A DNA stretch of 64,000 bases from Verrucomicrobia bacterium UBA1629 (GCA_002321305.1 DCMF01000098.1:28976-92975), one strand, 5' to 3'; positions 1 through 63,915 are shown, counted from the first letter of the stretch. Program-made: numbers and translations. The notes: generated from the sequence alone by a model not told the origin.

Positions 1-475
1 AGCCGGGCGAGCGCAGGACGGCGTTCGTCGGCAGCGCCGCGCCCGTCAGCTCGACTTCCGTCACGAGCCGCCGCATCGCGGCGACCTCCGGCACGAGCGT
101 CAGCTTCCAGCCGCCGTCCGGGAGCGCCGTCTCGCGAATCGCGAAGACGCCGTCGAACGCCGTGGCCTTCCCCGCGGCAAACGCATCCGTCGCCGCCCGG
201 ATCTCCGCATAGTGAGGCAGCTCGTCCAGCGACTTCTCCCGCCGCCCGTCCTCGTCCACGAAGACCATCGCGTTCGTCGTCATCGTGACGGACGACGCGA
301 ACGGCTCGCGCACCTCCCAGACGATGCCCTCGCCCGCCTTGCAGCGGACGACGCCGGACGACACGAGCGCGCGATCCGAACCGTCGAGCCGCCGCTCCAT
401 CGTCCAGGTCGCCGATGCGTCGAGCGCCGCCTGCAGCGCCGCGACAGCCGACGACGCCAAGAGAACAGAAACAAG
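1..475 (-). CDS. Hypothetical protein, partial: the ORF runs off the window start. An ATG lies at about 400, with possible TTG starts at about 460-475. It could be a LolA-like or other accessory protein of the adjacent lipid cluster, but the function is unassigned.
   Basis: I translated the minus strand of 1-400 by hand and found no stop. The product begins MERRLDGSDRALVSSGVVRCKAGEGIVWEVREPF...DGVFAIRETALPDGGWKLTLVPEV. An in-frame stop lies at 479-481. This ORF is not in the supplied track because it is truncated by the window edge. Confidence 0.4.
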
Positions 476-573
476 ACTCACCTTTTCGCCTCCCTCATAT
501 CTCACCCCTCACGACTCATATCCCATCCCTCATCTCTCACGACTCATCCCTCATATCCCATCCCTCGCCGCCA
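476..573. repeat. Family C heptamer minisatellite in inverted orientation. It overlaps the last codons and stop of the adenylation/dehydratase gene and the intergenic region.
   Basis: ctcaccttttcgcctccctcatatctcacccctcacgactcatatcccatccctcatctctcacgactcatccctcatatcccatccctc. Confidence 0.7.
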
Positions 574-1990
574 CAAGCCCCGACGCCGCACGGCCCGACG
601 CGACGTCCAGCGAAAAGGCGAAACGGCCCTCGCCTTCGCGCGTCACGCACAGCGTCACCGCGTCCGCCGGACGGACGAGCTTCTGGAACTTGAGCTTCCG
701 GTACGTCGCCGCGTCGGGGAAGTCGGGGAACGCCTGACGCGCGAAATGCCGCAGGAAATAGAGCTGCGCGACGCCCGGCAGGATCGGGAAGCCGGGGAAG
801 TGGCCCTGGAAACAGTCGCAGTCCGGCGGAAAGACGAGCGTCGCCTCCAGTCGCGCCGCCGTGGCCGACCAGGCGCAGACGACGGGCTCGCGGCACCACG
901 CGGACAGCGCCGCGCGCACGTCCGCCGCCGTCGTCTTGCCGCGCGCGTCCGTCGGCAGCTCGCGGACGAAGCGGATGCGGCGCGGGAACGCCCGCTCGCC
1001 GAGACCGGGCAGGAGGTCGCGCCGAAGGGCGGCGGCCAACGCCGCGTAAGCGCCCTTTGCGAGCGCGGCGCGCCCGTCGGCCGACAGGACGACGAGCGCC
1101 CCCAGGCGCGGCACGTCCGTTCCGCAGACTTCGGCGCGCACGTCCGCAACCAGCGGATGCCGCGCGAACGCCGCCTCGACGGCGGACAGCGAAACGAACT
1201 CCTCCAGAATCTTGACCTGCCTGTCGAGCCGTCCCAAGAGGCGGAACTGCTGCGGCGAGACGAATTCGACGGCATCGGACAGCGCGAACGGCCGCGCCAT
1301 CGCGTAGGGCGAATCGACGACCAGCGCGCCCGTCGCCGCATCGCGCGTCGCCGCGACGCCGCGCTGCAGGGTAAAGGGCTCGCCCTCGGACGAACGCCGC
1401 CACGCGACCGTGCCCGCCTCCGTCGAGCCGTAGATCTCGAGGGGACAGACCCCCAGGATCGTCCGCAGGGCCTGTGCCGTCGCCGGACGCAACGCGCCAC
1501 CCGAGACGACAACGCCCGAAAGGCGCCCCTTCAACGCCGGGAAATCGGGATGCTTCACGGCCTTTTCGAGAAAGGACGGCGTCGTGACGAACAGGACGCC
1601 GTCCGCCGCCGACGCGCCGACCTCGGCCAGCTCCTCGACGGAGATGACGACCGCCGGATGGACGGCGCATCCGGCGAGACGCGGCGCGCGCCGGCACCAG
1701 AGGTGGCCGAGCATGTGTTCGGGACGCGCCGACGAGACGATCCGCGGACGGTTCGCCCAGAGTTCGGGAAACGCCGCCACGAGCGCGCGCGCGTCGGCTT
1801 CCAGCGATGCGTCCGTGCGCACGATCTCCTTCGGCGTGCCGGTCGTGCCGGACGAGAGGAAGACGACGTCAGACACGGCGCACCCTCCGGCGCACGAGCC
1901 ATTCGCCCGCGAACATCGCCCCCAGCAGGACATACGCGAGGCAGCCGTTGTAGAGCGCCCAGGCCGTGCGGCTGGCGAAGACCGTCGCAA
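551..1990 (-). CDS. Fusion protein with an adenylate-forming (AMP-binding) domain and a C-terminal FabA/FabZ-like hotdog dehydratase domain. The N-terminal subdomain of the adenylation fold appears absent. The true start is probably the GTG near 1876 (VSDVVFLSSG).
   Basis: P-loop motif FLSSGTTGTPKEIV, later YGSTEAG and a C-terminal RGKT motif. The hotdog signature GHFPGFPILPGVAQLYF is near the C-terminus. The first roughly 38 codons of the track ORF are Arg/Ser-rich and overlap the upstream membrane-protein gene in another frame. Confidence 0.7.
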   Translation of the reverse strand: MRRSSPAARPGRSTTAASRMSCWGRCSRANGSCAGGCAVSDVVFLSSGTTGTPKEIVRTDASLEADARALVAAFPELWANRPRIVSSARPEHMLGHLWCRRAPRLAGCAVHPAVVISVEELAEVGASAADGVLFVTTPSFLEKAVKHPDFPALKGRLSGVVVSGGALRPATAQALRTILGVCPLEIYGSTEAGTVAWRRSSEGEPFTLQRGVAATRDAATGALVVDSPYAMARPFALSDAVEFVSPQQFRLLGRLDRQVKILEEFVSLSAVEAAFARHPLVADVRAEVCGTDVPRLGALVVLSADGRAALAKGAYAALAAALRRDLLPGLGERAFPRRIRFVRELPTDARGKTTAADVRAALSAWCREPVVCAWSATAARLEATLVFPPDCDCFQGHFPGFPILPGVAQLYFLRHFARQAFPDFPDAATYRKLKFQKLVRPADAVTLCVTREGEGRFAFSLDVASGRAASGLVAARDGI

Positions 1991-2282
1991 TCGTCACGGC
2001 GAGGTGTGCCGACAGGAAGACGACCCACGCGACCGTGACCTTTCGGCAGTAGGCGACGCCCCGCGCGTCCAGCGGCTCGCCCATCCGCCGCGCGAAGCAC
2101 TCCACAAGCGGCGTGCGGAACAGCGAGACGGCGAACCCGGCAAGGGCGACCGCGACGACGACCGCCGGATACAGCCGGAACCAGACGTTCGCCTTCAGGA
2201 AATAAAGCAGCCAGACGAGGGCGACCGCACCCACAAGGCGAAAAGCCGTTCGCGCGAGCCGCCCATTCATCGCGCCGCTCAC
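1869..2282 (-). CDS. Small integral membrane protein with four predicted TM helices (APE-cluster ApeG-like position).
   Basis: 137-aa ORF with hydrophobic segments VGAVALVWLLYFL, LYPAVVVAVALAGFAV, VTVAWVVFLSAHLAVTIATVF and LAYVLLGAMFAG. The GTG start overlaps the TGA stop of the upstream ACP gene. Confidence 0.5.
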   Translation of the reverse strand: MSGAMNGRLARTAFRLVGAVALVWLLYFLKANVWFRLYPAVVVAVALAGFAVSLFRTPLVECFARRMGEPLDARGVAYCRKVTVAWVVFLSAHLAVTIATVFASRTAWALYNGCLAYVLLGAMFAGEWLVRRRVRRV

Positions 2283-2539
2283 TTCGCCTGCTCGGCCGCG
2301 AGCTTCACGATGACGTCGGCGACGTCGCCGAGCGTGCGGATCGCCTTGAAGTCCTCGGCCTTGACCTTGAGGCCCGTCTGCTGCTGCAGGCGCACGACGA
2401 GATCGACCGCATCGATCGAATCGAGGTCAAGGTCCTCGAACAGCTTCGCCTCGGGCACGAGCTTCGCCCGATCCAGCTCGAACTCCGAGACCAGGACGTC
2501 CGCAATCGCCGCCAGCACTTCCTCTTTCGTCTTCATCAC
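2279..2539 (-). CDS. Acyl carrier protein (cluster-specific ACP).
   Basis: 86 aa with the phosphopantetheine attachment motif LDLDSIDAVDLV. Confidence 0.8.
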   Translation of the reverse strand: MMKTKEEVLAAIADVLVSEFELDRAKLVPEAKLFEDLDLDSIDAVDLVVRLQQQTGLKVKAEDFKAIRTLGDVADVIVKLAAEQAK

Positions 2540-2541
2540 CG

Positions 2542-2820
2542 TCAGTCCTCCAATGTCTCGCCGAGATTCGCCGCGATAAAATCCGCAAGCGACGCGATCG
2601 ACTTGAAATGCACCTTGTTCTCGGCCGAATTCGCCTTGAACTTCACCTGAAACCTCTTGCGCAACGCCGCGCCGATCTCCAGGGCGTCAATCGAGTCGAG
2701 GCCGACGCCCTCGCCGAACAGCGGCGCCCCCGCCGGCAAGTCCGCCGCCGTGAGGCCGTCGACCTCCACGCTCGCGAGAATCACCTGCCGAATCTCCTCT
2801 TCCAAATCCGCTCTTTTCAT
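2542..2820 (-). CDS. Acyl carrier protein, a second cluster-specific ACP. The start is at MKRADLEE, 92 aa.
   Basis: Motif GLDSIDALEIGAAL. The track ORF is extended upstream with Arg/Ser-rich junk. ATG is at 2820 by codon arithmetic. Confidence 0.75.
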   Translation of the reverse strand: MKRADLEEEIRQVILASVEVDGLTAADLPAGAPLFGEGVGLDSIDALEIGAALRKRFQVKFKANSAENKVHFKSIASLADFIAANLGETLED

Positions 2821-2851
2821 GGCGCGTATTATATCATATAATGTTCCGCCT
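2821..2851. promoter_or_regulatory. 31-bp divergent promoter region with TATAAT boxes on both strands placed about 7-10 nt from each ATG, suggesting leaderless transcripts. It contains the GGCGCGTATTATA motif that is also found at the htpG start.
   Basis: ggcgcgtattatatcatataatgttccgcctATG on plus. The reverse strand reads tatgatataatacgcgccATG. Confidence 0.4.
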
Positions 2852-3547
2852 ATGCCGAACCAGATACTCGTCCTGCCGGCCTTCGAGCCGAGTCCCCGGC
2901 TGCCGCAGCTCGTGCGCGCGCTTTCGGACGCCTTTGCCGCCGTCGTCGTCGTGGACGACGGGTCGCGGCAGTCCGCCGCCACCTTCGACGAAACCGCCGC
3001 CCTGCCGGGCGTCCGCCTGCTCCGCCACGCGGCAAACCGCGGCAAGGGCGCCGCGCTCAAGACCGCATTCGCCGAAGTCCGCCGCGCGTTCCCGGACGCG
3101 ACGGGCGTCGTGACGGCCGATGCGGACGGCCAGCACCTGCCGGAGGACATCCGCCGCGTCTCTGCCGCGTCGGCCGCGCACCCGGACCGCGTGACGCTCG
3201 GCGTGCGGTCGTTCGGCGGACGCGACGTGCCCTTCCGCAGCCGCCTCGGCAACCTCTGGACGTGCGGCGAGTTCTTCCTGCTCACGGGCACGTGGATCCG
3301 CGACACGCAGACGGGGCTGCGCGGCATCCCGCGCGCGCTGCTGCCGCGCTTCGCCGCGCTCGCGGGCGAACGCTACGACTACGAGGCGCGGATGCTCGTC
3401 GCGGCCGTGAAGCTGCCGCAGCCGCCCGTGCAGGTCCCGATCACGACCGTCTACGAGAACGGCAACGGCACGAGCCACTACCGTCCGCTCGCCGACACGT
3501 TCAGCACCCAGGCGGCGCTTCTCCGCGCCGCGTTCGGCCGCTTCTAG
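2852..3547 (+). CDS. Family 2 glycosyltransferase (DPM1 / ApeJ-like). It is the only plus-strand gene in the window.
   Basis: MPNQILVLPAFEP...VVVVDDGS...ANRGKGAALKTAF...TADADGQH. Start at Met66 of track ORF 2657..3547. Confidence 0.8.
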   Translation: MPNQILVLPAFEPSPRLPQLVRALSDAFAAVVVVDDGSRQSAATFDETAALPGVRLLRHAANRGKGAALKTAFAEVRRAFPDATGVVTADADGQHLPEDIRRVSAASAAHPDRVTLGVRSFGGRDVPFRSRLGNLWTCGEFFLLTGTWIRDTQTGLRGIPRALLPRFAALAGERYDYEARMLVAAVKLPQPPVQVPITTVYENGNGTSHYRPLADTFSTQAALLRAAFGRF

Positions 3548-3555
3548 GCGCCGCG

Positions 3556-4575
3556 TCAGATCACCGTCAGCAAGTCGTTGCGGTAAAGCGCGCGGATCGC
3601 ATCGCAGTCGAGCGTGTGCCCCGCGCGATAGCTGACGACCGTGCCGACGAAGCGGTGCGCGCCCGTCAGGGCCAAGGCCGCCATCAGGTCGAGCGTCGCC
3701 CGGTGCCAGACAGGCTCCAGGAACTTCTCGCCGACCGGGAAGCGAGGCTCCGTGTAGTAGCGCCCCTTCCCGTGGATGAGGATGTTGCGCTCGTTGTAGC
3801 CGAGGTTGCGCGTCGAGGCGAAGAGCCGCCCCACCGTCTTCGCAAGGATGTACTGCCGCCGCGTCGCGTTCGTCCGCGCCAGCGCGGCATAGCGGAACGT
3901 CTCCGGCGTCACGTCGAAGAGGATGCGCTGGTCGCCGATCACGGTGTTCCACGAGATGCCGCAGTCGATGCGCAGATTCCGCTCGCCATCCGCCGCCGGG
4001 AGGAACAGGAGGAAGTCGCCGCGGCTGCCGCCGAAGGCGACCGGCTCCTTCACCGTCACGCACGTCGCCGGCGCGTCCGTCTCGCGGATGCCCGCGTGCT
4101 CCACCGCCTTGACGAGCGGCAGGGACGATTGGTCGAAGAGCGGCGGGTCGCCGGAATTGACCTTCAAGAGCACGTCGTCGATGCCCAGCCCCAGCTTGAG
4201 CGCGATGATGTGCTCGACCATGCGCAGGTAGTTGTGGGGCGAGCCCGACCGCAGGACGAGGTTCTGCGCGCTCGTCCAGAGGTTCGCGATGTCGACCTGC
4301 GTGTCGAGCTGCTCCGGCTGGTCCATCCGGCGGATCCACCAGCCCGGCTTTTCGCTCGGCGCGAACGTCAGCGTCTGCTTGTGGCTGCCCTGGAACGTGC
4401 CGATGCCCGCGACCGGGGCCTCGCCCGCGAGCGTGCGCCGCGCCGACGGGAACGGCGAGACGCGTCTTTCCGCCAGCCGCGTCTCGTCAATCGGCAGCTC
4501 CCTAAAAAGTCGGTACGCCGCATCGATCGATGCGGCGCTCCCGAACACAATCTTGCCGATTGGATATTCCGGCAT
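3556..4575 (-). CDS. lpxC: UDP-3-O-acyl-N-acetylglucosamine deacetylase (LpxC family).
   Basis: VEHIIALKLGLGIDDVLLKVNSGDPPLFDQSSLPLVKAVEHAGI aligns with E. coli LpxC [44 protein letters not shown]. The zinc-ligand region WHRATLD is present. Confidence 0.75.
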   Translation of the reverse strand: MPEYPIGKIVFGSAASIDAAYRLFRELPIDETRLAERRVSPFPSARRTLAGEAPVAGIGTFQGSHKQTLTFAPSEKPGWWIRRMDQPEQLDTQVDIANLWTSAQNLVLRSGSPHNYLRMVEHIIALKLGLGIDDVLLKVNSGDPPLFDQSSLPLVKAVEHAGIRETDAPATCVTVKEPVAFGGSRGDFLLFLPAADGERNLRIDCGISWNTVIGDQRILFDVTPETFRYAALARTNATRRQYILAKTVGRLFASTRNLGYNERNILIHGKGRYYTEPRFPVGEKFLEPVWHRATLDLMAALALTGAHRFVGTVVSYRAGHTLDCDAIRALYRNDLLTVI

Positions 4576-4841
4576 TACTTCTCCGGCGCGGAACCGTCGT
4601 CGCCATAGCCCTTCGACTTCAGGTATTCGACGACCTTGCCGACCGTGGTGAGCTTCTCAGCGTCCTCTTCCGGAATCGCCGCGCCAAACTCCTCTTCAAA
4701 GGCCATGATGAGCTCGACGGAATCAAGCGAATCGGCCCCCAGGTCGTCGATGAACGACGCCTCCGTGGTGACCTGTTCGGCGTTCACTCCGAGCTGCTCA
4801 ACGATGATGTCTTTGACGCGATCTTCAAGCTTTCCTGCCAT
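4575..4841 (-). CDS. acpP: Acyl carrier protein AcpP (housekeeping).
   Basis: [24 protein letters not shown] canonical AcpP motif, with an AAGGAG RBS upstream. Confidence 0.9.
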
Positions 4842-4897: not shown

Positions 4898-6223
4898 TCA
4901 CGTGCAAGAGGGTGCCGAGAAAGTCGCGGCAAGGCGCCGAGCGAGGACGGGAAGTCCCGGGTCGCGGGCCCCGCATGTCACGAAGCATCCGAAGGCGCCG
5001 CGATGCGCCGCGCACCAGTCGAACGCCGCGTCGAGATCGGCGACCAGCCGTACGCGCGCGCCCGCCGCCGCGTCCGCGCGCGTCACCGCCGCAACGAGCG
5101 CGTCCGAGTTGATCGAGCGGTCGGTCGTTCCGCCCGCGTCGTAGACAGGCAGCAGCAGCAGCCGGTCCTGCGGACGAACCGTCTCCGCGAACATCGCCGC
5201 GAGCGCGTCCCTCATCTTCCTGAGCGGCGCGTAGCCATGCGGCCGCCAGATCGCGCAGACGCCCTGCGGATACCGCTCCGCCAGCGTCGTCCACATCGCC
5301 TTCAGCTTTTCCGGGTTGTGCGCGTAGTCGTCGTAGACGGCAGGTTCGGGAGGTTTGGAAGGTTTGGGAGGTTTGGAAGGTTCGGGAGGTTGGGGAGGTT
5401 GGGGAGGTTGGGGTGGGGTGATGAGCTGAAGGCGGCGCTCGACGCCACGGAAGGTCTTCATCGCGGCCACCGCATCGGACAGCTTCACGCCCAGAGCGAC
5501 CGCCATGCGCACCGCCAACTCGGCATTCTGCCGATTGTGCCGCCCCGGTACCGGCACTTCCAAACCTTCCAAACCTCCCGAACCTTCCAAACCGCCAAAC
5601 ACTTTCCTCCCATCCACCACCGGACCCTTGCAGCCTTTCACGAACGCATCGAAGACCGCATCCATCTCCTCCTTCGAGTAGTGGTCGGCGGAGGCGTTCG
5701 TGACAATGGCCGCATAGGGGCTGAAGGCGACGAGCGACTTGTCGCTCTCGTCCACCTCGGCGACGGCGAAGGCTCCGCGCCCGAAGCGCACCGCGCCCTC
5801 CCAGCCGGGCACGTTCGCGCCGTTCACGCACATCGGGTCCAGCCCACAGGACGCGAGGACGTGTCCGAGCATCGCCGTCACCGTCGACTTGCCGCAAGTG
5901 CCGACGACGGCGACGAGGCGATAGTCCCGAAGGGCGCGCGCAAGGGCCTTGGCGCGGTGCGTGACGGGAATGCCGAGCGCCTGCGCCTTTCGCAGCCCGG
6001 CGTTCGTCGGCTCAATGGCCGTCGAGACGATCACCTCGTCCGTCGCCGCATCGACGCCGCTGCCGTCGTCGGGAAAGACCTTCACGCCGAGCGATTCGAG
6101 AAACCGGACGTTCGGCGTGTCGCGTGTGCGATCCGCGCCCGTCACCCCGTCGCCCGACCGCACGAGCGCCGTCGCGAGCGCGCTCATGCCCACGCCGCCA
6201 ATGCCAATCAGATGCCGCTTCAT
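4898..6223 (-). CDS. murC: UDP-N-acetylmuramate--L-alanine ligase MurC. It carries two low-complexity in-frame insertions (GLEGSGGLEGLE and PPQPPQPPQPPEPSKPPKPSKPPEP).
   Basis: N-terminal IGIGGVGMSALA, Mur ligase motif VGTCGKST, and GRHNRQNAELAV. Confidence 0.85.
   Translation of the reverse strand: MKRHLIGIGGVGMSALATALVRSGDGVTGADRTRDTPNVRFLESLGVKVFPDDGSGVDAATDEVIVSTAIEPTNAGLRKAQALGIPVTHRAKALARALRDYRLVAVVGTCGKSTVTAMLGHVLASCGLDPMCVNGANVPGWEGAVRFGRGAFAVAEVDESDKSLVAFSPYAAIVTNASADHYSKEEMDAVFDAFVKGCKGPVVDGRKVFGGLEGSGGLEGLEVPVPGRHNRQNAELAVRMAVALGVKLSDAVAAMKTFRGVERRLQLITPPQPPQPPQPPEPSKPPKPSKPPEPAVYDDYAHNPEKLKAMWTTLAERYPQGVCAIWRPHGYAPLRKMRDALAAMFAETVRPQDRLLLLPVYDAGGTTDRSINSDALVAAVTRADAAAGARVRLVADLDAAFDWCAAHRGAFGCFVTCGARDPGLPVLARRLAATFSAPSCT
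5340..5418. repeat. Family A 9-bp tandem array (GGAGGTTTG/GAAGGTTTG units) inside murC. It encodes a PPQ/PPE/PSK tract.
   Basis: ggaggtttggaaggtttgggaggtttggaaggttcgggaggttggggaggttggggaggttgggg. Confidence 0.8.
5558..5600. repeat. Family A array in inverted orientation (CCAAACCTTCC units) inside murC. It encodes GGLEGSGGLEGLE.
   Basis: ccaaaccttccaaacctcccgaaccttccaaaccgccaaac is the reverse complement of the 5340-5418 array. Confidence 0.8.
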
Positions 6224-6262: not shown

Positions 6263-8845
6263 TTACAGGCTTCTCGGCAGCTCCTCCAGCGAGTAGCACT
6301 CGATCGTGTCGCCGACCTGGAAGCCCTCGTAGTTCGCGAAGCACACGCCGCATTCCTGCTGGCCCGTCACTTCCTTCACCTCGTCCTTGAAGTGGCGCAG
6401 CGTCTGCACCTTGCCGTCCCACACCTGCGCCTTGCTGCGGAGGATGCGGAAGCGCTCCTTGGCGACGAGCTTGCCGTCGAGCATCTGCGAGCCGGCGATC
6501 TTGCCGAGCTTGCCGATGTCGTAGATCGCCTTGATCTCGGCGTGGCCGAGGACGACTTCCTTGTACTCCGGCGGCAGCAGGTCGAGCATGCAGTTCTTGA
6601 CGTGATCCAGGAGCTCGTAGATGATGCGGAAGGAGTTGATCCGGACGCCGTCGTGGCGCGCCTGCTGCTGGACGCCCGAGTCGTTGCCGATGTCGAAGCC
6701 GACGAGGATCGCCTTGCCGGCGGCGGCGGACTTGACGTCCGTCAGCGAGACGTTGCCCGTGCCCGTGCCGATGATGTTCAAGGCCACCTTCTCGGACTTG
6801 ATCTCGTTCAGCGCCTGCACGATCGCCTCCAGCGAACCCTGCGTGTCGGACTTCACGATCACGTTGAGCTCGCGCTTGCCCTCGGCGGCCATCGCGCTCA
6901 TGAGCGCGTCGAGCGTCGCGGCCTTCGAGGTCGAGAGGGCCTCCTCCTTCTTCTCCTGCGCGGTCTGCTCGGCGAGCGTGCGCGCGCGCTTCTCGTCCAG
7001 CATGACGCGGAACTCGCTGCCGGCCTCCGGCACGCCCGACAGGCCCGTGCACTTCACCGGCGTCGCCGGCGGGGCCTCCTTGATGCGGCGGCCGTGGTCG
7101 TCGATGAGCGCGCGCACCTTGCCGAAATGCTCGCCGATGAGGATCGCGTCCCCGACCTTGAGCGTGCCGCCCGTGACGAGCAGCGTCGCGCACGGGCCAA
7201 GGCCCTGCTGCAGCTCGGACTCGATCACGAAGCCGTTCGCGCGGCGGTTCGGGTTCGCCTGGAGCTCCAGCACCTCCGCCTGCACGAGGATGTTCTCCAG
7301 GAGCGCGTCCACGCCGAGGCCCGTCACGCCCGAGACGGGGCAGCAGATGATGTCGCCGCCCCAGTCCTCCGGCGTCAGGCCCCGCTTCTGGAGCTGCTGC
7401 TTGACGCGATCGACGTTCGCCGTCGGCTTGTCGGCCTTCGTGATCGCGACCATGATCTGCACGCCCGTCTGGCGGCAGACCTTGATGCACTCCTCGGTCT
7501 GCGGCATGATGCCGTCGTCGGCCGCCACGATGAGGACGGCGATGTCGGTGATCTGCGCGCCGCGCGCACGCATCGCGCTGAACGCGGCGTGTCCGGGCGT
7601 GTCGAGGAACGTGATCTTCTTGCCCGCGATCTCGACCTGGTAGGCGGAGATCTGCTGGGTGATGCCGCCGGCCTCGCCCGCCGCGACATGCTCCTTGCGG
7701 ATGTAGTCCATCAGCGTCGTCTTGCCGTGGTCGACGTGGCCGAGGAACGTGACGACCGGCGCGCGCGGCTTCAGCGTCTCGGGCGGATCCTCCGGAATGA
7801 GGTCGTCCGCGTCGATCGCCTTCAGGACGGGCTTCGCCGCCGCCTTGTCGCGGGCGTGCTCGATCGTCACCTTGAAGCCGTACTTCTCCGCGACCTTCGT
7901 CGCGACGTCCGGCTCGACGCGCTGGTTGATGGACGCGAGGACCTTCAGCCCCATCAGGTCGGCGATGAGGCGGTTCGGCTTGATGTTGAGCTTCGCCGCG
8001 AGATCCTTCACGACCACCGCGCCGCGGATCGAGATCTCCTTGTTCGCCTCGTCCACGGAAATGCGGCTGCCCTGCTCCATCACCTTCGGCGCCACCACGC
8101 GCGGCGCGCCCTTGTCGAGGCCCTTGCCGCCGTCGCGGTCCTTCCGGCCCCTGCCGCCGTCACGCCCGGCGACGCCCACGGAAATCGTCGGCTTCGGCGG
8201 CTTCGGCTTCGGGGCGGCCGCGACGGAAATCGAGATCGTCGCCGCCGGCCGCGCGTGCTGAAGCGGACGGAACCCGGCCGCCGTCAGCCCCGTCTTCGCG
8301 GCGGAGATCGTCGGAATGACCTTCGGCTTCACGCCCGGCGCCATGCGGATCTTGGGCGTTGAGGGTTGAGTGGTGAGAGGTGAGGGATGAGAAGTGAGGG
8401 GTGAGGGATGAGAAGTGAGGGGTGAGGGGGAAGGGGTTGGAGAGGGCGGCGCCTCTCGCGTCCCTTCCGTCCCTCTCGTCACGGCAGCGGCAGCCGCCGC
8501 CGGAGCCGCCGTCGCCGCGGCCTTGAACGCCTTGCCTTCCGCCGCGTCCTTCGCGATCTTCAGGTGTTCGGCGAGCTTCGCCTTCTGCGCGGCGAAGAAC
8601 GCGGCGTTCAGGTCGGCCACGCGCTTCGCCTTGGCGGCGCGCGCCGCCGCGACGTCGGCCTTCGGCGCGTTCGCGAGCGCCAGCCTGAGCGCGGCGAGTT
8701 CGCCGTCCTCGACCGCGCTGATCGCGCTTGTGACCTCGACGCCGGCCTTTTCGGCCACGCGCAGCACCTCGGCGCTCGTGACGCCCGCCTCCTTGGCAAT
8801 TTCACAGACTCTCATGGGTTCAGCCTTCCTCTCCCTCGTGCGCAT
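6263..8845 (-). CDS. infB: Translation initiation factor IF-2. The start is possibly at Met11 (8815). It contains an in-frame heptad repeat insertion, SHPSPLT x3.
   Basis: N-terminal MRVCEIAKEAGVTSAEVLRV and G-domain VVTFLGHVDHGKTTLMDYIR...DTPGHAAF. Confidence 0.95.
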   Translation of the reverse strand: MRTRERKAEPMRVCEIAKEAGVTSAEVLRVAEKAGVEVTSAISAVEDGELAALRLALANAPKADVAAARAAKAKRVADLNAAFFAAQKAKLAEHLKIAKDAAEGKAFKAAATAAPAAAAAAVTRGTEGTREAPPSPTPSPSPLTSHPSPLTSHPSPLTTQPSTPKIRMAPGVKPKVIPTISAAKTGLTAAGFRPLQHARPAATISISVAAAPKPKPPKPTISVGVAGRDGGRGRKDRDGGKGLDKGAPRVVAPKVMEQGSRISVDEANKEISIRGAVVVKDLAAKLNIKPNRLIADLMGLKVLASINQRVEPDVATKVAEKYGFKVTIEHARDKAAAKPVLKAIDADDLIPEDPPETLKPRAPVVTFLGHVDHGKTTLMDYIRKEHVAAGEAGGITQQISAYQVEIAGKKITFLDTPGHAAFSAMRARGAQITDIAVLIVAADDGIMPQTEECIKVCRQTGVQIMVAITKADKPTANVDRVKQQLQKRGLTPEDWGGDIICCPVSGVTGLGVDALLENILVQAEVLELQANPNRRANGFVIESELQQGLGPCATLLVTGGTLKVGDAILIGEHFGKVRALIDDHGRRIKEAPPATPVKCTGLSGVPEAGSEFRVMLDEKRARTLAEQTAQEKKEEALSTSKAATLDALMSAMAAEGKRELNVIVKSDTQGSLEAIVQALNEIKSEKVALNIIGTGTGNVSLTDVKSAAAGKAILVGFDIGNDSGVQQQARHDGVRINSFRIIYELLDHVKNCMLDLLPPEYKEVVLGHAEIKAIYDIGKLGKIAGSQMLDGKLVAKERFRILRSKAQVWDGKVQTLRHFKDEVKEVTGQQECGVCFANYEGFQVGDTIECYSLEELPRSL
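8355..8445. repeat. Family C heptamer minisatellite in frame in infB. 3 x 7 bp gives a 7-aa period, producing SPLTSHP repeats.
   Basis: ggttgagtggtgagaggtgagggatgagaagtgaggggtgagggatgagaagtgaggggtgagggggaaggggttgg. Confidence 0.8.
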
Positions 8846-10901: not shown

Positions 10902-12116
10902 TCATCTGACGTCCGCCAGAGAGGCCAACTGTCTCTGACGCCGTGCGCGAAAGGCGCCGTTTCTCGCGTTGTCGCGCTTCGTGTAGCGAATGGACCGCTC
11001 GATGTCATCGGAGATGTCGATCGCTCTCTGCTGTGCGGTACGCTTCCAGCCGCCCTGCAGATAGTCGATCAGCGCCTTGCCCAAGACTTCGCCGAAAACG
11101 GTCGGAACGGCATTCCCGACCTGCTGATACTGATTGGCGACCGTGCCCGCGAATTCCCATTCGGGCGGGAATCCCTGCAAGCCAGCGACTTCGCGCAACG
11201 TCAGGCGCCGCAACGTGCCGTCCGGCAGACGGATCCAGTCCTGACTCGACGATCCCGTCACCGTCCGGGCCGGCTTCGACTGATCTGCGATGAACATCCC
11301 CTGCCGATAGCCCCAATGCCCGTTCGGACGCGTCGCCTCTGCAACGCCCGGACTCTTCAGGCCCTTTCCGTCAGGAATGCCAGAAAGAACTGCGCGCGCT
11401 TTTTCCGTCGGCAAGATCCAATGGGATTTGTCCTTGTCTGCCGACGTCTTCAGATAGTCGCCAAGCGTTGTCCACCGCGCGCGTCGCTCCGTCTCAAACA
11501 GGGAGTCAACAGGATTTCCCGTGTGCGTTGGCGAGGGAATTTCGGGGGCGCCCGCAATCGAAGAGCCGAGAACGAAGCACCGAACACGCCGTTGCGGCGA
11601 TCCGTAATCCGCCGAATTGAGAAGACTTGCACGGCAACTGTAGCCAAGTTCGGCGAACATCTTGAGCAGCCCTTTCAAGACCTCGCCCGGTTCATCTGAA
11701 TTTCCCTTCGCCGTCACAAGTCCACGAACATTCTCAAAGAGAAAGACCTTTGGCCTGATTTCCTTGAGCAGGCGCAGATACTCATAGACAAGCGCGCCGC
11801 GCTCGTCGAAAATCGAGTCCTGCTTTCCCGCACTCGAAAACGCCTGGCATGGCGGCCCTCCCACGAGGCAGTCAACCGTCTTTCGCCGTCCCAGCATGTC
11901 CTGTGCGGAGATCTGCCGAATGTCCCCCTGCATGACATTCGCATGCTGAAAATAGGTTCGATCCGTTCCGGGAATGACTATTCGCCGTTCCTTCATGTTG
12001 CGCACGGTCTCGCAATACGACGGATGTATCTCAAGCGTCGAAAGGACGTCAAAACCGGCCCGCTCAATGCCGATGTCAAGCCCCCCTGCCCCCGTGAAGA
12101 TGCTGACAGCCGTCAT
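10902..12116 (-). CDS. DNA (cytosine-5)-methyltransferase of a type II restriction-modification (R-M) system.
   Basis: Motif I FTGAGGLDIG, motif IV GGPPCQAFS, and motif VI ENV. GC is about 55%, against about 70% in the flanks. Confidence 0.9.
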   Translation of the reverse strand: MTAVSIFTGAGGLDIGIERAGFDVLSTLEIHPSYCETVRNMKERRIVIPGTDRTYFQHANVMQGDIRQISAQDMLGRRKTVDCLVGGPPCQAFSSAGKQDSIFDERGALVYEYLRLLKEIRPKVFLFENVRGLVTAKGNSDEPGEVLKGLLKMFAELGYSCRASLLNSADYGSPQRRVRCFVLGSSIAGAPEIPSPTHTGNPVDSLFETERRARWTTLGDYLKTSADKDKSHWILPTEKARAVLSGIPDGKGLKSPGVAEATRPNGHWGYRQGMFIADQSKPARTVTGSSSQDWIRLPDGTLRRLTLREVAGLQGFPPEWEFAGTVANQYQQVGNAVPTVFGEVLGKALIDYLQGGWKRTAQQRAIDISDDIERSIRYTKRDNARNGAFRARRQRQLASLADVR

Positions 12117-12117
12117 T

Positions 12118-13047
12118 TCAATGCGTCCTCAAATAGCGCGTCAATGCCGCAATGTCATATTCCCAAAAGACAATGCCCCCGGCGTTGATCAAGGACTCAT
12201 ACTCTTTCTGCGGCACAAACCCCGACAAGACGACAGCGCAGACGATGCTTTCGCCAAACCGCTCCTTCCAGTCGTCAAACTTCTCGCGGCATTCCTTGAC
12301 ACGCTTAAATGCATCAATGCGAACGCCGATTGCCTTGGCTTCGATCAAGAGCAGTTTTCCGCTTCCCTTCAGGCGAACGGCCAGATCGGCCTTTTGGACA
12401 TTTCGACCCCGGACACGGCATTCGCGGCTATACTGCCCGACAAGCAAATCGTCGATTGACGTGACGATTCGCCGCGTCTGCACCGAAACATAACCCGCCT
12501 TGACAATGCCCTTTACGGCCGTCGTCTCCTGGAGTTCCTTCCGCCAGTTCCGGAATGCCGTTGCCGAATTCTGGTTGGCTATCAGCGAACACGTCCAGCG
12601 CTTCGCGTAACTTTCAGCGAGCGAAAGCTCATGGCCCTGCAAAGTCTCCTGAAGCCACAGAAACCGCTGCGAGTCCAAGTAGCGGTTGACCATGCGGCAG
12701 ATTTCGGGCGCAACGGCCGACAGCGCCTTCCCCTGCCGCCCTCGATCGACAATGTTTTCCTCGAAGTCAGCCGTCGAAACAAGCCCCACCAGCTGTCCGA
12801 GTTTCATCTGGCTCAGGACCGGGAGCATGCAATAGCGAAGGACCTTGATGATTCGGCTGTCTTCGAGGAGCATACGCGGGGTCACTTGTTCGCGAAACCC
12901 GTTCGTCTTCCGAAAGGCGATGTCATACAGCGAATCACATCGCGTCTCCGAATCCGAATAGAGCTTTTTCGACATCTCGAAAAAGATGTTCGTCTCGAAG
13001 CGTTCTGACTTTCTCAGCACGTCGGCGATGCGATCCGCTTTCTTCAT
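12118..13047 (-). CDS. Putative type II restriction endonuclease, the partner of the upstream C5-methyltransferase.
   Basis: 309 aa, 1 nt downstream of the MTase stop. Lowest GC in the window, about 50%. A PD-(D/E)xK-like arrangement is present (SIDDLL ... LLLIEAKAIG). Family is not recognised. Confidence 0.55.
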   Translation of the reverse strand: MKKADRIADVLRKSERFETNIFFEMSKKLYSDSETRCDSLYDIAFRKTNGFREQVTPRMLLEDSRIIKVLRYCMLPVLSQMKLGQLVGLVSTADFEENIVDRGRQGKALSAVAPEICRMVNRYLDSQRFLWLQETLQGHELSLAESYAKRWTCSLIANQNSATAFRNWRKELQETTAVKGIVKAGYVSVQTRRIVTSIDDLLVGQYSRECRVRGRNVQKADLAVRLKGSGKLLLIEAKAIGVRIDAFKRVKECREKFDDWKERFGESIVCAVVLSGFVPQKEYESLINAGGIVFWEYDIAALTRYLRTH

Positions 13048-22470: not shown

Positions 22471-25734
<3,264 letters not shown>

Positions 25735-29003: not shown

Positions 29004-29125
29004 GATGAGATGTGAGAGGTGAGGGATGAGATGTGAGAAGTGAGGGATGAGGGATGGGAGGTGAGAAGTGAGGGATGAGAGGTGGGAGGTGAGAAGTGAG
29101 GGGTGGGAGGTGAGGGATGGGGTGT
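29004..29125. repeat. Family C heptamer minisatellite (GTGAGGG / ATGAGAA / GTGGGAG units), intergenic between rho and coaE.
   Basis: gatgagatgtgagaggtgagggatgagatgtgagaagtgagggatgagggatgggaggtgagaagtgagggatgagaggtgggaggtgagaagtgaggggtgggaggtgagggatgggg. Confidence 0.8.
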
Positions 29126-29805
29126 CAGGAATGGCGTGTGAGCCATGTCAGGAATTTTTTAACTTCTTCTTTCAGTTCTTCGGGTGTGCCGTCGTTGTGA
29201 ATCACGTAGTGGGATTTGGCGGCCTTCTCCGCAACCGGCATCTGCGCCGCCAGTCGGGCCTCGGCCTCTGCGCGCGTGTAGCCGCGCGTCGTCATCATCC
29301 GCGAGATCTGCGTTTCCCTCTCGGAGACGACGCAGCATATTATATCAAAATTTTTCTCCCAGTGTGCTTCGAAGAGGAGAGGGATGATGGCGAGGCGAAA
29401 GTTTGGGACGTTTGGGAGGTTTGGAAGGTTCGGGTGGTTGGGGAGGTTTTTTTGGGGGGGTAAAGGATGGGAAGATTTGAAAAACGTGTGACCAGAACCC
29501 CTTCCTGCACAGTTCCTATCTAGACTTTCCAAACCTTCCAAACCTCCCAAACCTCCCAAACTTTCCGAACCTTCCAGAAATTCCTCAATCCTTTCCTTCA
29601 CAACCGGATGAAGCTTCGCTTCGAGTGCGCGGCGCTTCGCGGGGTCGGAAAAGACTTCGGCGGCGAGGCGTTTGCGCTCCGCCGGATCGGGAATCAGCTC
29701 ATGCACGATGTCGTCGGCGTCAATCGTCTCGACGCCGAAGTCGTTCAAGAAACGGGCAACGAGCGATTTGCCGCACGCAATGCCACCTGTCAAGCCTATT
29801 CTCAT
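29125..29805 (-). CDS. coaE: Dephospho-CoA kinase CoaE. It carries a roughly 60-aa in-frame insertion derived from a family A inverted-repeat element.
   Basis: MRIGLTGGIACGKS Walker A, with C-terminal CoaE homology resuming at RLAIIPLLFE. The insert is LEGSESLGGLGGLEGLESLDRNCAGRGSGHTFFKSSHPLPPQKNLPNHPNLPNLPNVPNF. Confidence 0.85.
   Translation of the reverse strand: MRIGLTGGIACGKSLVARFLNDFGVETIDADDIVHELIPDPAERKRLAAEVFSDPAKRRALEAKLHPVVKERIEEFLEGSESLGGLGGLEGLESLDRNCAGRGSGHTFFKSSHPLPPQKNLPNHPNLPNLPNVPNFRLAIIPLLFEAHWEKNFDIICCVVSERETQISRMMTTRGYTRAEAEARLAAQMPVAEKAAKSHYVIHNDGTPEELKEEVKKFLTWLTRHS
29396..29585. mobile_element. Family A MITE-like element inside coaE. Terminal inverted arrays of GGTTTGGAAGG units flank a roughly 60-bp unique core.
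   Basis: Left arm gtttgggacgtttgggaggtttggaaggttcgggtggttggggagg. Right arm ccaaaccttccaaacctcccaaacctcccaaactttccgaaccttcc. The core does not encode CoaE-like sequence. Confidence 0.55.
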
Positions 29806-41780: not shown

Positions 41781-41845
41781 CATTCATCTCATTCGATTAT
41801 TCAGTCATTCGATTATTCGATTATTCGATCATTCGATTACTGTTC
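41781..41845. repeat. Family B-type single-orientation array (CATTCGATTATTCG units) spanning the 3' end and stop of the giant gene.
   Basis: cattcatctcattcgattattcagtcattcgattattcgattattcgatcattcgattactgttcgatctcgacc. Confidence 0.6.
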
Positions 41846-63814: not shown

Positions 63815-63879
63815 ATCGCACATTTGTTTTGAGGGCGGAAGATGCACCCCGCGCGTGGCGAGGGCACACTCCACCCAGT

Positions 63880-63915
63880 TTATTTCGTAGCGAATTATAC
63901 CAAAAATCGCCGCGC
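63880..63915 (-). promoter_or_regulatory. Promoter of giant gene 3, ATTTTTGGTATAAT extended -10.
   Basis: Minus strand reads ggcgATTTTTGGTATAATtcgctacgaaataaactggg. Confidence 0.45.

What the first reader, a model, noticed from the sequence alone, without database searches (positions are those of the whole stretch)
1..4841. Edge of an aryl-polyene (APE)-like lipid biosynthesis cluster abutting lpxC and acpP
The gene order ACP, ACP, small membrane protein, adenylation enzyme fused to a hotdog dehydratase, and downstream hypothetical protein, plus a divergently transcribed GT2, mirrors the apeE-apeF-apeG-apeH-apeI...apeJ core of aryl-polyene or related specialised-lipid clusters. The ketosynthase, reductase and exporter genes would lie beyond the window start. 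It is unusual that the cluster sits directly beside lpxC, housekeeping acpP and murC. It is also unusual that the adenylation enzyme and the dehydratase are fused.
Basis: partly seen in the sequence, partly recalled or inferred. Interest (0 to 1): 0.6.

Follow-up and report, generated by a model that had tools for sequence, protein, structure and literature searches.

The report
Fragment of a scattered aryl-polyene lipid cluster
These genes are the loading, sugar-attachment and export part of the widespread aryl-polyene outer-membrane pigment-lipid pathway, in a gut Kiritimatiellia bacterium that appears to keep the chain-building genes elsewhere in its genome, so it is an ordinary member of a known family with a rearranged layout.

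Summary
- ACP92 matches ApeE.
- ACP85 matches ApeF.
- The 133-aa membrane protein matches ApeG.
- The ligase-hotdog fusion matches ApeH plus ApeI.
- The divergent GT2 matches the N-terminal domain of ApeJ.
- The "hypothetical" gene is a LolA_3-type carrier (the ApeL role).

The source contig was recovered and runs past coordinate 1. It carries only one more ape gene there: a 939-aa fusion of an ApeM-like RND exporter with an LpxM-like acyltransferase (the C-terminal domain of ApeJ). After that come tuf, rpmG, secE, nusG, rplK and rplA. No ketosynthase, chain-length factor, ketoreductase, ApeP or ApeD is found in about 70 kb of contiguous sequence.

Sister Kiritimatiellia genomes show every stage, from a complete cluster to stand-alone apeP-Q-R-C-D operons flanked by unrelated genes. 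The cluster is therefore dispersed in this lineage. The five genes compared are under purifying selection (dN/dS 0.06-0.31).

Neither "unusual" feature stands. The ligase-dehydratase fusion lies in a single ORF in 81 of 88 related loci, across several phyla. The lpxC/acpP/murC neighbourhood is not conserved, and lpxC is transcribed convergently to the GT2.

Verdict: a new member of a known kind, of low to moderate interest.

The parts
1..481 (-). LolA-like periplasmic carrier (the ApeL role). It is 170 aa with an N-terminal hydrophobic, signal-like segment. The last 31 nt lie beyond the window start.
   Evidence: Pfam LolA_3 PF19574, 31.4 bits against a cut-off of 23. Weak hit to NF053544, flexirubin LolA2. 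Hydropathy. It follows the ligase gene in 55-59% identical Kiritimatiellia loci. There is no direct blastp or phmmer hit to E. coli ApeL.
491..566 (.). Short-period (7/14/21/35-nt) tandem repeat that fills the 69-nt gap between the ligase-hotdog gene and the LolA-like gene.
   Evidence: Tandem Repeats Finder. The same repeat type occurs at 8360-8437 and 29006-29114: 13 pattern hits against 0.04 expected.
551..1876 (-). ApeH::ApeI fusion, 441 aa. Residues 1-~325 are a short ANL adenylation enzyme that begins directly at the SSGTTGxPK P-loop. Residues ~340-441 are an ApeI-like hotdog dehydratase with the GHFP...LPGV motif.
   Evidence: Pfam AMP-binding 54.6 bits, AMP-binding_C 27.2 bits and ApeI-like 32.3 bits, all above cut-off. 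The best NCBIfam hit is the 4-coumarate ligase model TIGR02372, 103 bits, which is below that model's cut-off. blastp: residues 4-321 match E. coli ApeH 135-445 at 30% (7e-33); residues 343-412 match ApeI at 34%. Conserved motifs are seen in 16 homologues. AF2 mean pLDDT is 89, and Foldseek top hits are ANL aryl/acyl ligases. dN/dS is 0.20.
1869..2270 (-). ApeG-like small membrane protein, 133 aa with 3-4 hydrophobic segments. It overlaps the ligase start by 8 nt.
   Evidence: blastp: 37.5% identity to E. coli ApeG residues 78-189, E 2e-19. No Pfam hit. Hydropathy. dN/dS 0.24.
2279..2536 (-). ApeF-type acyl carrier protein, 85 aa, with the DLDSID phosphopantetheine site.
   Evidence: NCBIfam NF003757, 104 bits against a cut-off of 65. 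46% identity to E. coli ApeF, E 6e-25. dN/dS 0.06.
2542..2820 (-). ApeE-type starter acyl carrier protein, 92 aa. It has the GEG glycine-rich motif before the GLDS site and an N(S)AE 'lid' loop.
   Evidence: NCBIfam NF006617, 71.4 bits against a cut-off of 70. 49% identity to E. coli ApeE, E 2e-24. The motifs are read from the sequence and compared with the ApeE features described in PMC12624758. dN/dS 0.14.
2814..2842 (+). Sigma-70-like promoter match (TTTTCA-17-TATAAT) in and just upstream of the 31-nt divergent gap, immediately before the GT2 start.
   Evidence: Consensus scan: 1 site found against 0.3 expected. This is only a consensus match. The 31-nt divergent spacing is conserved in L005 and L106.
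2852..3547 (+). Stand-alone GT2 glycosyltransferase, 231 aa, equivalent to the N-terminal glycosyltransferase domain of ApeJ. It is divergent from apeE and convergent with lpxC.
   Evidence: Pfam Glycos_transf_2, 49.6 bits. 30% identity to E. coli ApeJ residues 9-233, E 5e-17. Outside the close clade, its best hits among the fetched loci are ApeJ GT domains inside complete APE clusters. The best NCBIfam hit is PpgS, a polyprenyl-P-GalNAc synthase, below cut-off. The divergent pairing with apeE is conserved in three different genomic contexts. dN/dS 0.31.

Best explanation
The locus is one sub-operon of an aryl-polyene-lipid (APEL) pathway that is split across several places in the genome of a gut Kiritimatiellia bacterium.

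Shown here:
- The genes are orthologues of apeE, apeF, apeG, apeH+apeI (fused) and the glycosyltransferase half of apeJ.
- A LolA_3-type carrier gene sits where apeL would be, but it has no direct sequence match to E. coli ApeL.
- Just outside the window lies a 939-aa protein that joins an apeM-type RND exporter to the LpxM-like acyltransferase half of apeJ.

Inferred from the Xenorhabdus, E. coli and Acinetobacter work:
1. The short adenylating domain activates an aromatic acid with ATP. In the model systems this acid is 4-hydroxybenzoate. The domain loads it directly onto the ApeE-type ACP.
2. Ketosynthases (ApeR, ApeO with ApeC), the ketoreductase ApeQ and the dehydratase pair ApeI/ApeP extend it into a polyene. 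The ApeI partner is the hotdog domain fused to the ligase. The other enzymes would be encoded at another locus.
3. The GT2 builds the sugar-phosphate head group on a glycerolipid.
4. The exporter-fused acyltransferase moves the ACP-bound chromophore onto the sugar.
5. The RND domain, ApeG and the LolA-like carrier deliver the lipid to the outer membrane.

The adjacent acpP-lpxC-murC genes are ordinary housekeeping neighbours.
For: - One-to-one blastp matches to E. coli CFT073 Ape proteins. The ACPs pass the family-specific NCBIfam models and the hotdog domain passes Pfam ApeI-like.
- A profile of the C-terminal domain of the 939-aa protein hits LpxM (5kn7, E 9e-10) and PatA. H-x-G-x-x-E and GDR are conserved (H, the G and the D invariant).
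- More distant relatives of the fusion protein sit in complete, canonically ordered APE clusters (C-D-E-F-G-H/I-J-K-L-M-N-O-P-Q-R).
- Within Kiritimatiellia, L012 and L017 carry E-F-G-HI-L-M::AT-O-P-Q-R-C-D in one block. Other genomes stop after apeO, or keep only E-F-G-HI with or without the LolA-like gene or the GT2.
- Stand-alone apeQ-R-C-D and apeP-Q-R-C-D operons occur among unrelated genes.
- One metagenome (ERZ4568013) holds two contigs at similar coverage, 10.3x and 12.1x: an acpP-lpxC contig whose LpxC is 96% identical to this window's, and a stand-alone apeP...Q-R-C-D contig.
- dN/dS of 0.06-0.31 against a relative that also lacks adjacent KS genes.
- Gene roles are taken from PMC8253772, bioRxiv 10.1101/2020.12.19.423268 and PMC12624758.
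Against: - The chain-building genes were not found for this genome.
- The link between the two ERZ4568013 contigs rests only on shared sample and similar coverage, and that organism is a relative, not this one.
- The nearest species-representative genome (L016) carries a copy of the module riddled with deletions, so loss does occur in the clade. Alternatively, that contig is misassembled.
- The ligase lacks the ~130 N-terminal residues that E. coli ApeH has, and its substrate is unknown.
- The source of 4-hydroxybenzoate in this organism is unknown. It may lack a ubiquinone pathway (my inference; not checked).
- No experiment exists for any Kiritimatiellia APE.
Confidence: 0.7

Rival explanations
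1. The module works without a dedicated type II PKS. The ligase loads an aromatic or other acid onto the ApeE-type ACP. The acyl group then goes directly onto a sugar-phospholipid through the exporter-fused acyltransferase, or is first extended by housekeeping FAS II. The product would be a non-polyene aroyl or omega-aryl acyl lipid exported to the outer membrane.
For: - No KS, CLF, KR, ApeP or ApeD within about 70 kb.
- The genes are under purifying selection even in relatives that also lack adjacent KS genes.
- The unit GT2 + E-F-G-HI is kept intact in three unrelated genomic contexts.
- A canonical acpP lies 1.8 kb away.
Against: - The fused ApeI-like dehydratase has no obvious role without a KS/KR cycle.
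- Relatives in the same clade carry highly conserved ApeR (75-99% identity to the query within the class) in stand-alone ape PKS operons. Dispersal explains the missing genes more simply than loss does.
Confidence: 0.15
2. The module is a decaying remnant of an APE cluster that lost its PKS genes and is no longer functional.
For: - The PKS genes are absent from the locus.
- The nearest species-representative relative, L016, has a copy with two internal deletions that remove apeE, apeF, apeG and both ends of the ligase gene.
Against: - All reading frames are intact and all catalytic and carrier motifs are kept.
- dN/dS is 0.06-0.31.
- Close homologues of the same length occur in hundreds of metagenome contigs.
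Confidence: 0.07
3. The ACP, ligase and GT2 genes belong to a lipid A synthesis or modification pathway together with the adjacent lpxC and acpP.
For: - Physical adjacency to lpxC and acpP in this genome.
- The acyltransferase domain is LpxM-like.
- PMC8253772 speculated that the APE anchor might be lipid A-like.
Against: - The adjacency is absent from all other related loci and from a relative with 96% identical LpxC.
- lpxC converges on the GT2, so they are in separate transcription units.
- LpxC here is the standard, highly conserved Kiritimatiellia LpxC.
- The solved APE lipid anchor is a GalNAc-phosphate-glycerolipid, not lipid A.
Confidence: 0.03
4. This is a classical contiguous APE cluster whose KS, KR and exporter genes continue immediately beyond coordinate 1.
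For: The gene order matches apeE-I of the model clusters. The exporter does lie beyond coordinate 1.
Against: The source contig shows tuf, rpmG, secE, nusG, rplK and rplA directly after the exporter gene. No ape PKS homologue is present.
Confidence: 0.02

Closest known systems
E. coli CFT073 APE cluster (c1186-c1204, apeA-apeR; Cimermancic 2014, cited from my own knowledge; Johnston 2021, PMC8253772)
   Same: The order apeE-apeF-apeG-apeH-apeI is the same, with 30-49% identical proteins. Also shared are a GT2, a LolA-like carrier, an RND/MMPL exporter and an LpxM-like acyltransferase domain.
   Different: Compared with E. coli:
- apeH and apeI are separate genes in E. coli and fused here.
- The ligase here lacks the first ~134 residues of ApeH, and ApeG lacks its first ~77.
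- ApeJ is GT2::acyltransferase in E. coli. Here the GT2 stands alone and is divergent, and the acyltransferase is fused to the exporter.
- apeA, B, C, D, K, N, O, P, Q and R are absent from the locus.
Xenorhabdus doucetiae ape cluster and its product, the aryl-polyene lipids (bioRxiv 10.1101/2020.12.19.423268)
   Same: It supplies the functional model. ApeH loads ApeE. The glycosyl/acyltransferase ApeJ attaches GalNAc and then the chromophore. ApeM, ApeG, ApeL and ApeN export the lipid.
   Different: That paper defines ape clusters by the co-occurrence of apeO/R, apeE/F, apeC, apeI/P, apeQ and apeM. This locus has only apeE/F, apeI and apeM. The product in Kiritimatiellia is unknown.
Complete Kiritimatiellia clusters (loci L012 and L017, rumen and gut MAGs)
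   Same: They share the fused ligase-hotdog protein (56-59% identity), the same short ApeG, the LolA-like gene and the exporter::acyltransferase fusion, all in the same order.
   Different: In those genomes apeO-P-Q-R-C-D follow directly after the exporter gene. Here tuf follows.
Xanthomonadin and flexirubin clusters (related aryl-polyene pigment systems)
   Same: They also use an aryl-acid ligase, ACPs, LolA-like carriers and an RND exporter. The LolA-like protein here gives a weak hit to the flexirubin LolA2 model. A 350-aa short ANL ligase from Dyadobacter (4gs5) is among the fold matches.
   Different: All matches to the flexirubin-specific model are far below its cut-off. The one-to-one matches are to the E. 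coli-type Ape proteins. No DarA/DarB or XanB2 equivalents were seen in the window, and this was not searched systematically.

Membership tests
Aryl-polyene (ape) biosynthetic gene cluster | Tandem specialised ACPs, ApeE and ApeF | tested here: met
   NF006617 scores 71.4 against a cut-off of 70, and NF003757 scores 104.4 against 65. Identity is 49% to E. coli ApeE and 46% to ApeF. The ApeE GEG motif and NAE-type lid are present. Both ACPs fail the AcpP model TIGR00517 (18.8 and 40.2 against 70.45).
Aryl-polyene (ape) biosynthetic gene cluster | ApeH-type aryl-acid:ACP adenylating ligase | tested here: met
   30% identity to E. coli ApeH over 323 alignment columns, E 7e-33. The P-loop, GSTE motif and the invariant Lys314 near the C-terminal end of the ligase part are conserved. 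The fold is ANL. Substrate was not tested. The N-terminal ~130 residues of ApeH are missing.
Aryl-polyene (ape) biosynthetic gene cluster | ApeI-type hotdog dehydratase | tested here: met
   Pfam PF22818 ApeI-like scores 32.3 against a cut-off of 28.5. 34% identity to E. coli ApeI. The His of the GHFP motif is invariant. The domain is present as a C-terminal fusion.
Aryl-polyene (ape) biosynthetic gene cluster | ApeM RND/MMPL exporter with LolA-like carrier and ApeG | tested here: met
   The 939-aa protein just beyond the window is 27% identical to E. coli ApeM, E 3e-22, and hits the HAE3 model below cut-off. LolA_3 is above its Pfam cut-off. ApeG is 37.5% identical. No ApeN/DUF3261 was found.
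Aryl-polyene (ape) biosynthetic gene cluster | ApeJ glycosyltransferase plus acyltransferase | tested here: met
   Both domains are present but on different proteins. GT2 matches ApeJ residues 9-233. The C-terminus of the 939-aa protein matches ApeJ residues 349-446. A profile of that domain hits LpxM, E 9e-10.
Aryl-polyene (ape) biosynthetic gene cluster | APE ketosynthases ApeO and ApeR and chain-length factor ApeC in the cluster. From memory, this is also the antiSMASH 'arylpolyene' rule. | tested here: not met
   There is no KS active-site motif and no phmmer hit with E. coli or Kiritimatiellia ApeO/R/C in the 64-kb window plus 6.4 kb beyond it. The contig continues into tuf and ribosomal genes.
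Aryl-polyene (ape) biosynthetic gene cluster | Ketoreductase ApeQ, dehydratase ApeP and acyltransferase ApeD in the cluster | tested here: not met
   No hits in the window or in L001.
Aryl-polyene (ape) biosynthetic gene cluster | The missing PKS genes are present elsewhere in the same genome | not testable with these tools
   Only this contig of the genome is reachable. Relatives show stand-alone apeP-Q-R-C-D operons.
Aryl-polyene (ape) biosynthetic gene cluster | The product is an aryl-polyene chromophore bound to an outer-membrane lipid | not testable with these tools
   This needs chemistry. No data exist for Kiritimatiellia. A yellow Pontiella isolate was only tentatively linked to carotenoid or APE genes (PMC7356697).
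Lipid A biosynthesis or modification operon | Conserved linkage and co-transcription with lpxC | tested here: not met
   The linkage is seen only in this species (L001-L004 are all this species). It is absent in L005, L007, L012, L106 and the others. A relative with 96% identical LpxC has acpP-lpxC without ape genes. lpxC and the GT2 are convergent, 8 nt apart.
Housekeeping AcpP and LpxC | The 88-aa ACP is a canonical AcpP, and the 339-aa protein is the lineage's normal LpxC | tested here: met
   AcpP scores 109 on TIGR00517 against a cut-off of 70.45. LpxC scores 118 bits on Pfam, and the residues aligned to E78, H79, H238, D242 and H265 of E. coli LpxC (numbering from memory) are kept. There are 2397 homologues, the listed ones 81-100% identical, and those carrying a source name are from Kiritimatiellae MAGs where NCBI names them LpxC. 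LpxC is below the TIGR00325 cut-off (78 against 187), as expected for a divergent phylum.

The most novel reading that the evidence does not exclude
In this lineage the loading, attachment and export module may have become independent of the polyene synthase. A minimal adenylating enzyme that starts at its P-loop would load an aromatic acid onto ApeE. An acyltransferase physically fused to the RND exporter would couple the final acylation of a sugar-phospholipid to its export. The product would be a non-polyene aroyl glycolipid in the outer membrane of strictly anaerobic gut bacteria.
Probability: 0.1. Interest if true: 0.6.

Novelty: new member of a known kind. Interest (0 to 1): 0.28.

Why it matters
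[quoted passage not shown] Their products protect against oxidative stress and affect biofilm formation. This case makes two practical points.

First, in gut Kiritimatiellia the pathway is often broken into separate operons. Cluster-based detectors that require a ketosynthase, and reference definitions that require all core genes together, will miss or mis-score loci like this one.

Second, the domain arrangements recorded here are natural experiments. They indicate which steps work together:
- ligase fused to dehydratase;
- acyltransferase fused to glycosyltransferase, to the exporter, or free;
- a ligase that starts at its P-loop.

In particular, the exporter fusion suggests that the final acylation is coupled to export.

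None of this changes the known mechanism, so the value is incremental.

Tried and rejected
- Exact look-up of the 479-aa maximal ORF of the ligase failed, because the real start is 38 codons downstream. The LpxC look-up recovered the contig instead.
- Pfam finds nothing for the 939-aa protein or the 133-aa protein, even at E=1. Their assignments came from NCBIfam weak hits, direct comparison with E. coli Ape proteins and a profile search against PDB.
- I tried to find this genome's own ApeR by looking up the ApeR variants closest to that of the 96%-LpxC relative (P0174 and P0177). Both come from other samples.
- I tried to link proteins to one assembly through accession numbers. The collection returns none.
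- A lipid A link was considered and rejected on comparative and transcriptional grounds.
- The idea that the fusion is rare was rejected.
- I considered that the GT2 might be an unrelated neighbour. It was kept as part of the system for two reasons. The 31-nt divergent pairing with apeE recurs in three different genomic contexts. Its best remote hits are ApeJ GT domains. In the 55-59% clade, however, no GT2 is adjacent.
- The fold search of the AF2 model only confirmed a generic ANL fold and gave no substrate information.

Full report
**1. Observation**

The window is the exact reverse complement of part of ENA contig ERZ808281 NODE_34 (93 kb; locus L001). Identity is 100% over the 14,575 nt that overlap.

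Using the gene calls on that contig, the window coordinates are as follows.

| Gene | Coordinates | Strand | Note |
|---|---|---|---|
| LolA_3-like | 1-481 | - | 31 nt cut off by the window start |
| Ligase::hotdog | 551-1876 | - | 441 aa |
| 133-aa membrane protein | 1869-2270 | - | |
| 85-aa ACP | 2279-2536 | - | |
| 92-aa ACP | 2542-2820 | - | |
| GT2 | 2852-3547 | + | 231 aa |
| LpxC | 3556-4575 | - | |
| AcpP | 4575-4841 | - | |
| MurC | 4898-6223 | - | |

infB and nusA follow MurC.

**2. What lies beyond coordinate 1**

L001 extends 6.4 kb past the window start. The LolA-like gene is followed, with a 4-nt overlap, by a single 939-aa gene. After it come tuf, rpmG, secE, nusG, rplK and rplA.

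The 939-aa protein has about 12 hydrophobic segments in two bundles, plus one more at the start of a C-terminal soluble domain. Pfam finds nothing in it. NCBIfam gives a below-cut-off HAE3 RND hit and a faint lysophospholipid-acyltransferase hit.

The window and the extension contain no ketosynthase active-site motifs. phmmer finds no hit to ApeA, B, C, D, K, N, O, P, Q or R from E. coli. It also finds no hit to ApeO, P, Q, R, C or D from a Kiritimatiellia cluster.

**3. Direct comparison with a characterised cluster**

I fetched the E. coli CFT073 APE cluster from RefSeq (NC_004431, locus L090) and compared the proteins with blastp.

| Protein here | E. coli match | Identity | E-value |
|---|---|---|---|
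| 92-aa ACP | ApeE | 49% | 2e-24 |
| 85-aa ACP | ApeF | 46% | 6e-25 |
| 133-aa membrane protein | ApeG 78-189 | 37.5% | 2e-19 |
| Fusion, residues 4-321 | ApeH 135-445 | 30% | 7e-33 |
| Fusion, residues 343-412 | ApeI | 34% | 2e-7 |
| GT2 | ApeJ 9-233 | 30% | 5e-17 |
| 939-aa protein, N-part | ApeM | 27% | 3e-22 |
| 939-aa protein, last 249 residues | ApeJ 349-446 | 36% | 9e-13 |

Supporting details:
- The two ACPs pass the specific NCBIfam models NF006617 and NF003757, and both fail the AcpP model.
- The 92-aa ACP carries the glycine-rich GEG motif and an N(S)AE loop. These were shown to be functionally important features of the starter ACP ApeE (PMC12624758).
- I built a profile from 17 copies of the C-terminal domain, taken from ApeJ-type and exporter-fused proteins. 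H-x-G-x-x-E and GDR motifs are conserved (the H, the G and the D invariant). It hits the lipid A acyltransferase LpxM (5kn7, E 9e-10) and PatA.

This fits the role proposed for the ApeJ acyltransferase half. That half is thought to move the ApeE-bound chromophore onto the 6-OH of GalNAc in a GalNAc-phosphate-glycerolipid (bioRxiv 10.1101/2020.12.19.423268).

**4. The fusion protein**

Sixteen homologues all begin M-[AS]-[DE]-V, followed at once by the SSGTTGxPK P-loop. This adenylation domain therefore lacks everything before motif A3. E. coli ApeH has about 134 more residues at its N-terminus.

Among the fetched loci there are two forms:
- A short form, where the ligase starts directly after apeG. 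It is found in 28 loci: all Kiritimatiellia plus Gastranaerophilales.
- A long form, with about 125-140 (46-163 overall) extra residues. It is found in 49 loci.

The GSTE, GR-DR-K and C-terminal GK motifs are invariant. So are the GHFP...LPGVAQL motifs of the hotdog domain. AlphaFold2 gives mean pLDDT 89 (pTM 0.60). Foldseek returns ANL enzymes, including benzoate, anthranilate and 4-chlorobenzoate ligases and a 350-aa short ligase from Dyadobacter. This says nothing specific about the substrate.

**5. Is the fusion unusual?**

No. A scan of one genome per species found at least 576 relatives. In 81 of the 88 loci held at that point, the ligase and hotdog parts lie in one stop-free ORF. These include Paraburkholderia, Caballeronia, Trinickia, Thalassospira, Propionivibrio, Pseudoxanthomonas, Fibrobacter, Spirochaetales, Lentisphaerae and Gastranaerophilales. 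One caveat applies: the 80 loci kept by the scan are the best full-length matches, so they are biased toward the fused form.

Outside Kiritimatiellia, the loci inspected are nearly all complete, canonically ordered APE clusters, C-D-E-F-G-H/I-J-K-L-M-(N)-O-P-Q-R.

The acyltransferase domain comes in three arrangements:
- fused behind the GT2, as in E. coli (22 loci);
- free-standing, or not fused to a recognised GT2 or MMPL domain (16 loci);
- fused behind the exporter (12 loci: all Kiritimatiellia plus one Sphaerochaetaceae MAG).

**6. The cluster is dispersed in Kiritimatiellia**

More than 300 homologues of the fusion protein were found. All are about 438 aa, and the named ones come from Kiritimatiellae MAGs. 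Their contexts differ.

| Loci | Identity to this ligase fusion | Arrangement |
|---|---|---|
| L012, L017 | 56-59% | E-F-G-HI-LolA-M::AT-O-P-Q-R-C-D in one block |
| L020, L022, L023, L024 | 55-58% | end after apeO |
| L007, L013, L014 | 58-59% | only E-F-G-HI-LolA; in L007 this follows mlaEFD |
| L005/L009 | 78% | only GT2 + E-F-G-HI, in one context |
| L106 | 82% | only GT2 + E-F-G-HI, in a second, different context |
| L010 | 80% | only E-F-G-HI |

The converse also holds. ApeR is highly conserved in the class (75-99% identity to the L012 query). It occurs in stand-alone operons among unrelated genes:
- apeQ-R-C-D between dnaE / a Na+/H+ exchanger and redox genes;
- apeP-Q-R-C-D among sulfatase and glycosidase genes;
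- apeP-[MmeI restriction-modification insert]-apeQ-R-C-D next to an HU gene.

One Hadza gut metagenome (ERZ4568013) contains two relevant contigs. NODE_4485 (10.3x) carries acpP-lpxC, with LpxC 96% identical to this window's and no ape genes nearby. NODE_1568 (12.1x) carries the stand-alone apeP...Q-R-C-D operon. This is circumstantial evidence that a close relative keeps the PKS half at a separate locus.

Purifying selection acts on all five genes compared with L009. dN/dS is 0.20 for the fusion, 0.24 for apeG, 0.06 for the 85-aa ACP, 0.14 for the 92-aa ACP and 0.31 for the GT2. That argues against a dead remnant.

One warning comes from the nearest species-representative genome, L016 (87-93% nt identity). 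Its copy has two internal deletions, leaving GT2(partial)-ligase(partial)-LolA. This is either real decay in that lineage or a misassembly.

**7. The lpxC/acpP/murC neighbourhood**

The 88-aa ACP is a canonical AcpP (TIGR00517, 109 bits against a cut-off of 70).

The 339-aa protein is a genuine LpxC homologue:
- It scores 118 bits on the Pfam LpxC model.
- It keeps the residues aligned with the LpxC catalytic and zinc-binding residues, E78, H79, H238, D242 and H265 in E. coli numbering recalled from memory.
- It has 2397 homologues, the listed ones 81-100% identical. Those carrying a source name are Kiritimatiellae MAG proteins that NCBI calls LpxC.

It is therefore the lineage's normal LpxC.

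The acpP stop and the lpxC start overlap as TAATG. That pair is kept in the 96% relative but not in an 84% relative. No other ape locus has lpxC or this acpP beside it. lpxC ends 8 nt from the end of the GT2 on the opposite strand. The adjacency is a local accident of gene order, not a functional link.

**8. Mechanism**

Shown:
- orthology of each part;
- conserved motifs;
- conserved operon structure: tight spacing or overlaps from apeE through the ligase gene, and between the LolA-like gene and the exporter;
- a sigma-70-like promoter match at 2814-2842, just before the GT2 start.

Inferred from the model systems (PMC8253772, the APEL preprint and PMC12624758):
1. The ligase adenylates an aromatic acid and loads the ApeE-type ACP.
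2. ApeR starts the polyene chain and ApeO/ApeC extend it. ApeQ reduces, and the ApeI domain together with an ApeP partner dehydrates. All except the ApeI domain would be encoded elsewhere.
3. The GT2 builds the sugar-phosphate head group.
4. The exporter-fused LpxM-like domain transfers the chromophore.
5. The RND domain, ApeG and the LolA-like carrier move the lipid to the outer membrane.

The starter acid is unknown. The source of 4-hydroxybenzoate is unclear for an organism that may not make ubiquinone (my inference; not checked).

**9. Rivals**

- A PKS-independent pathway that makes a non-polyene aroyl lipid: about 0.15.
- A non-functional remnant: about 0.07.
- A lipid A modification pathway: about 0.03.
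- A contiguous classical cluster: about 0.02, refuted.

The first two cannot be excluded without the rest of the genome.

**10. Novelty and score**

This is an APE-family locus in a phylum where such clusters have barely been discussed. The only paper found is a tentative remark about a yellow Pontiella isolate (PMC7356697).

The differences from the model clusters are a matter of layout:
- dispersal into sub-operons;
- a ligase that starts at its P-loop;
- ligase-dehydratase and exporter-acyltransferase fusions.

All of these recur in many public genomes. I rate it a new member of a known kind, with interest about 0.28.

**Limits of the analysis**

- Ketosynthase absence rests on motif and phmmer scans of stop-to-stop ORFs.
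- Context comparisons use metagenome contigs, some of them short.
- The same-genome link for the ERZ4568013 contigs rests only on shared sample and similar coverage.
- The antiSMASH rule is quoted from memory.

Noticed in passing
window 491-566, 8360-8437, 29006-29114; also 5338-5413, 5557-5593, 29401-29449, 29527-29584; and 23507-23589, 24762-24900, 38463-38499, 41791-41839: Short-period tandem repeats are scattered through intergenic and coding DNA. There are three types: 7-nt TGAGGGG/TGAGAGG, 9-nt CGGGAGGTT/TTCCAAACC, and 8-nt ATTCGACG. A 19-nt pattern for the 7-nt type gives 13 hits against 0.04 expected. Inside genes the repeats stay in frame as Pro/Ser/Thr-rich inserts: PLTSHPS repeats in IF-2, a PQPPEPSKP-type insert in MurC, and a similar linker in the 939-aa exporter-acyltransferase.
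   Followed up: partly
window 4573-4577: The acpP stop and the lpxC start overlap as TAATG, giving a translationally coupled acpP-lpxC pair downstream of murC. The pair is conserved in a relative with 96% identical LpxC (L095) but not in one with 84% identity (L096). This is an unusual home for a canonical acpP, which normally sits in the fabD-fabG-acpP-fabF operon.
   Followed up: partly
L016 9437-11396: The nearest species-representative genome (87-93% nt identity) has a copy of the module with two internal deletions. They remove apeE, apeF, apeG, both ends of the ligase gene and its hotdog domain. No exporter gene follows. This is either real gene decay or a misassembled MAG contig.
   Followed up: partly
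L098/L099 3249-6866: A 1205-aa MmeI-family restriction-modification gene is inserted between apeP and apeQ in a stand-alone ape PKS operon of a related Kiritimatiellia. A sister contig (L105) has apeP and apeQ about 140 nt apart, without the insert.
   Followed up: no
window 10902-13047: A restriction-modification pair: a C5 DNA methyltransferase (404 aa) and a XamI-family endonuclease (309 aa). They lie between rnhB and htpG, according to the Pfam labels on the source contig.
   Followed up: no
window 41837-54466 and 54908-63976 (minus strand): Two giant ORFs of 4209 and 3022 aa fill the last third of the window. They were not analysed.
   Followed up: no
window 2820-2852: The start codons of the divergent GT2 and apeE genes are only 31 nt apart. 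This spacing is identical in relatives in other genomic contexts (L005, L106). Any apeE promoter must therefore lie inside the GT2 coding region, or be shared.
   Followed up: partly
L007 6424-9046: In one 58% relative the apeE-F-G-HI-LolA operon follows directly after mlaE-mlaF-mlaD. These are lipid-trafficking genes, so this could be a functional association or a coincidence.
   Followed up: no
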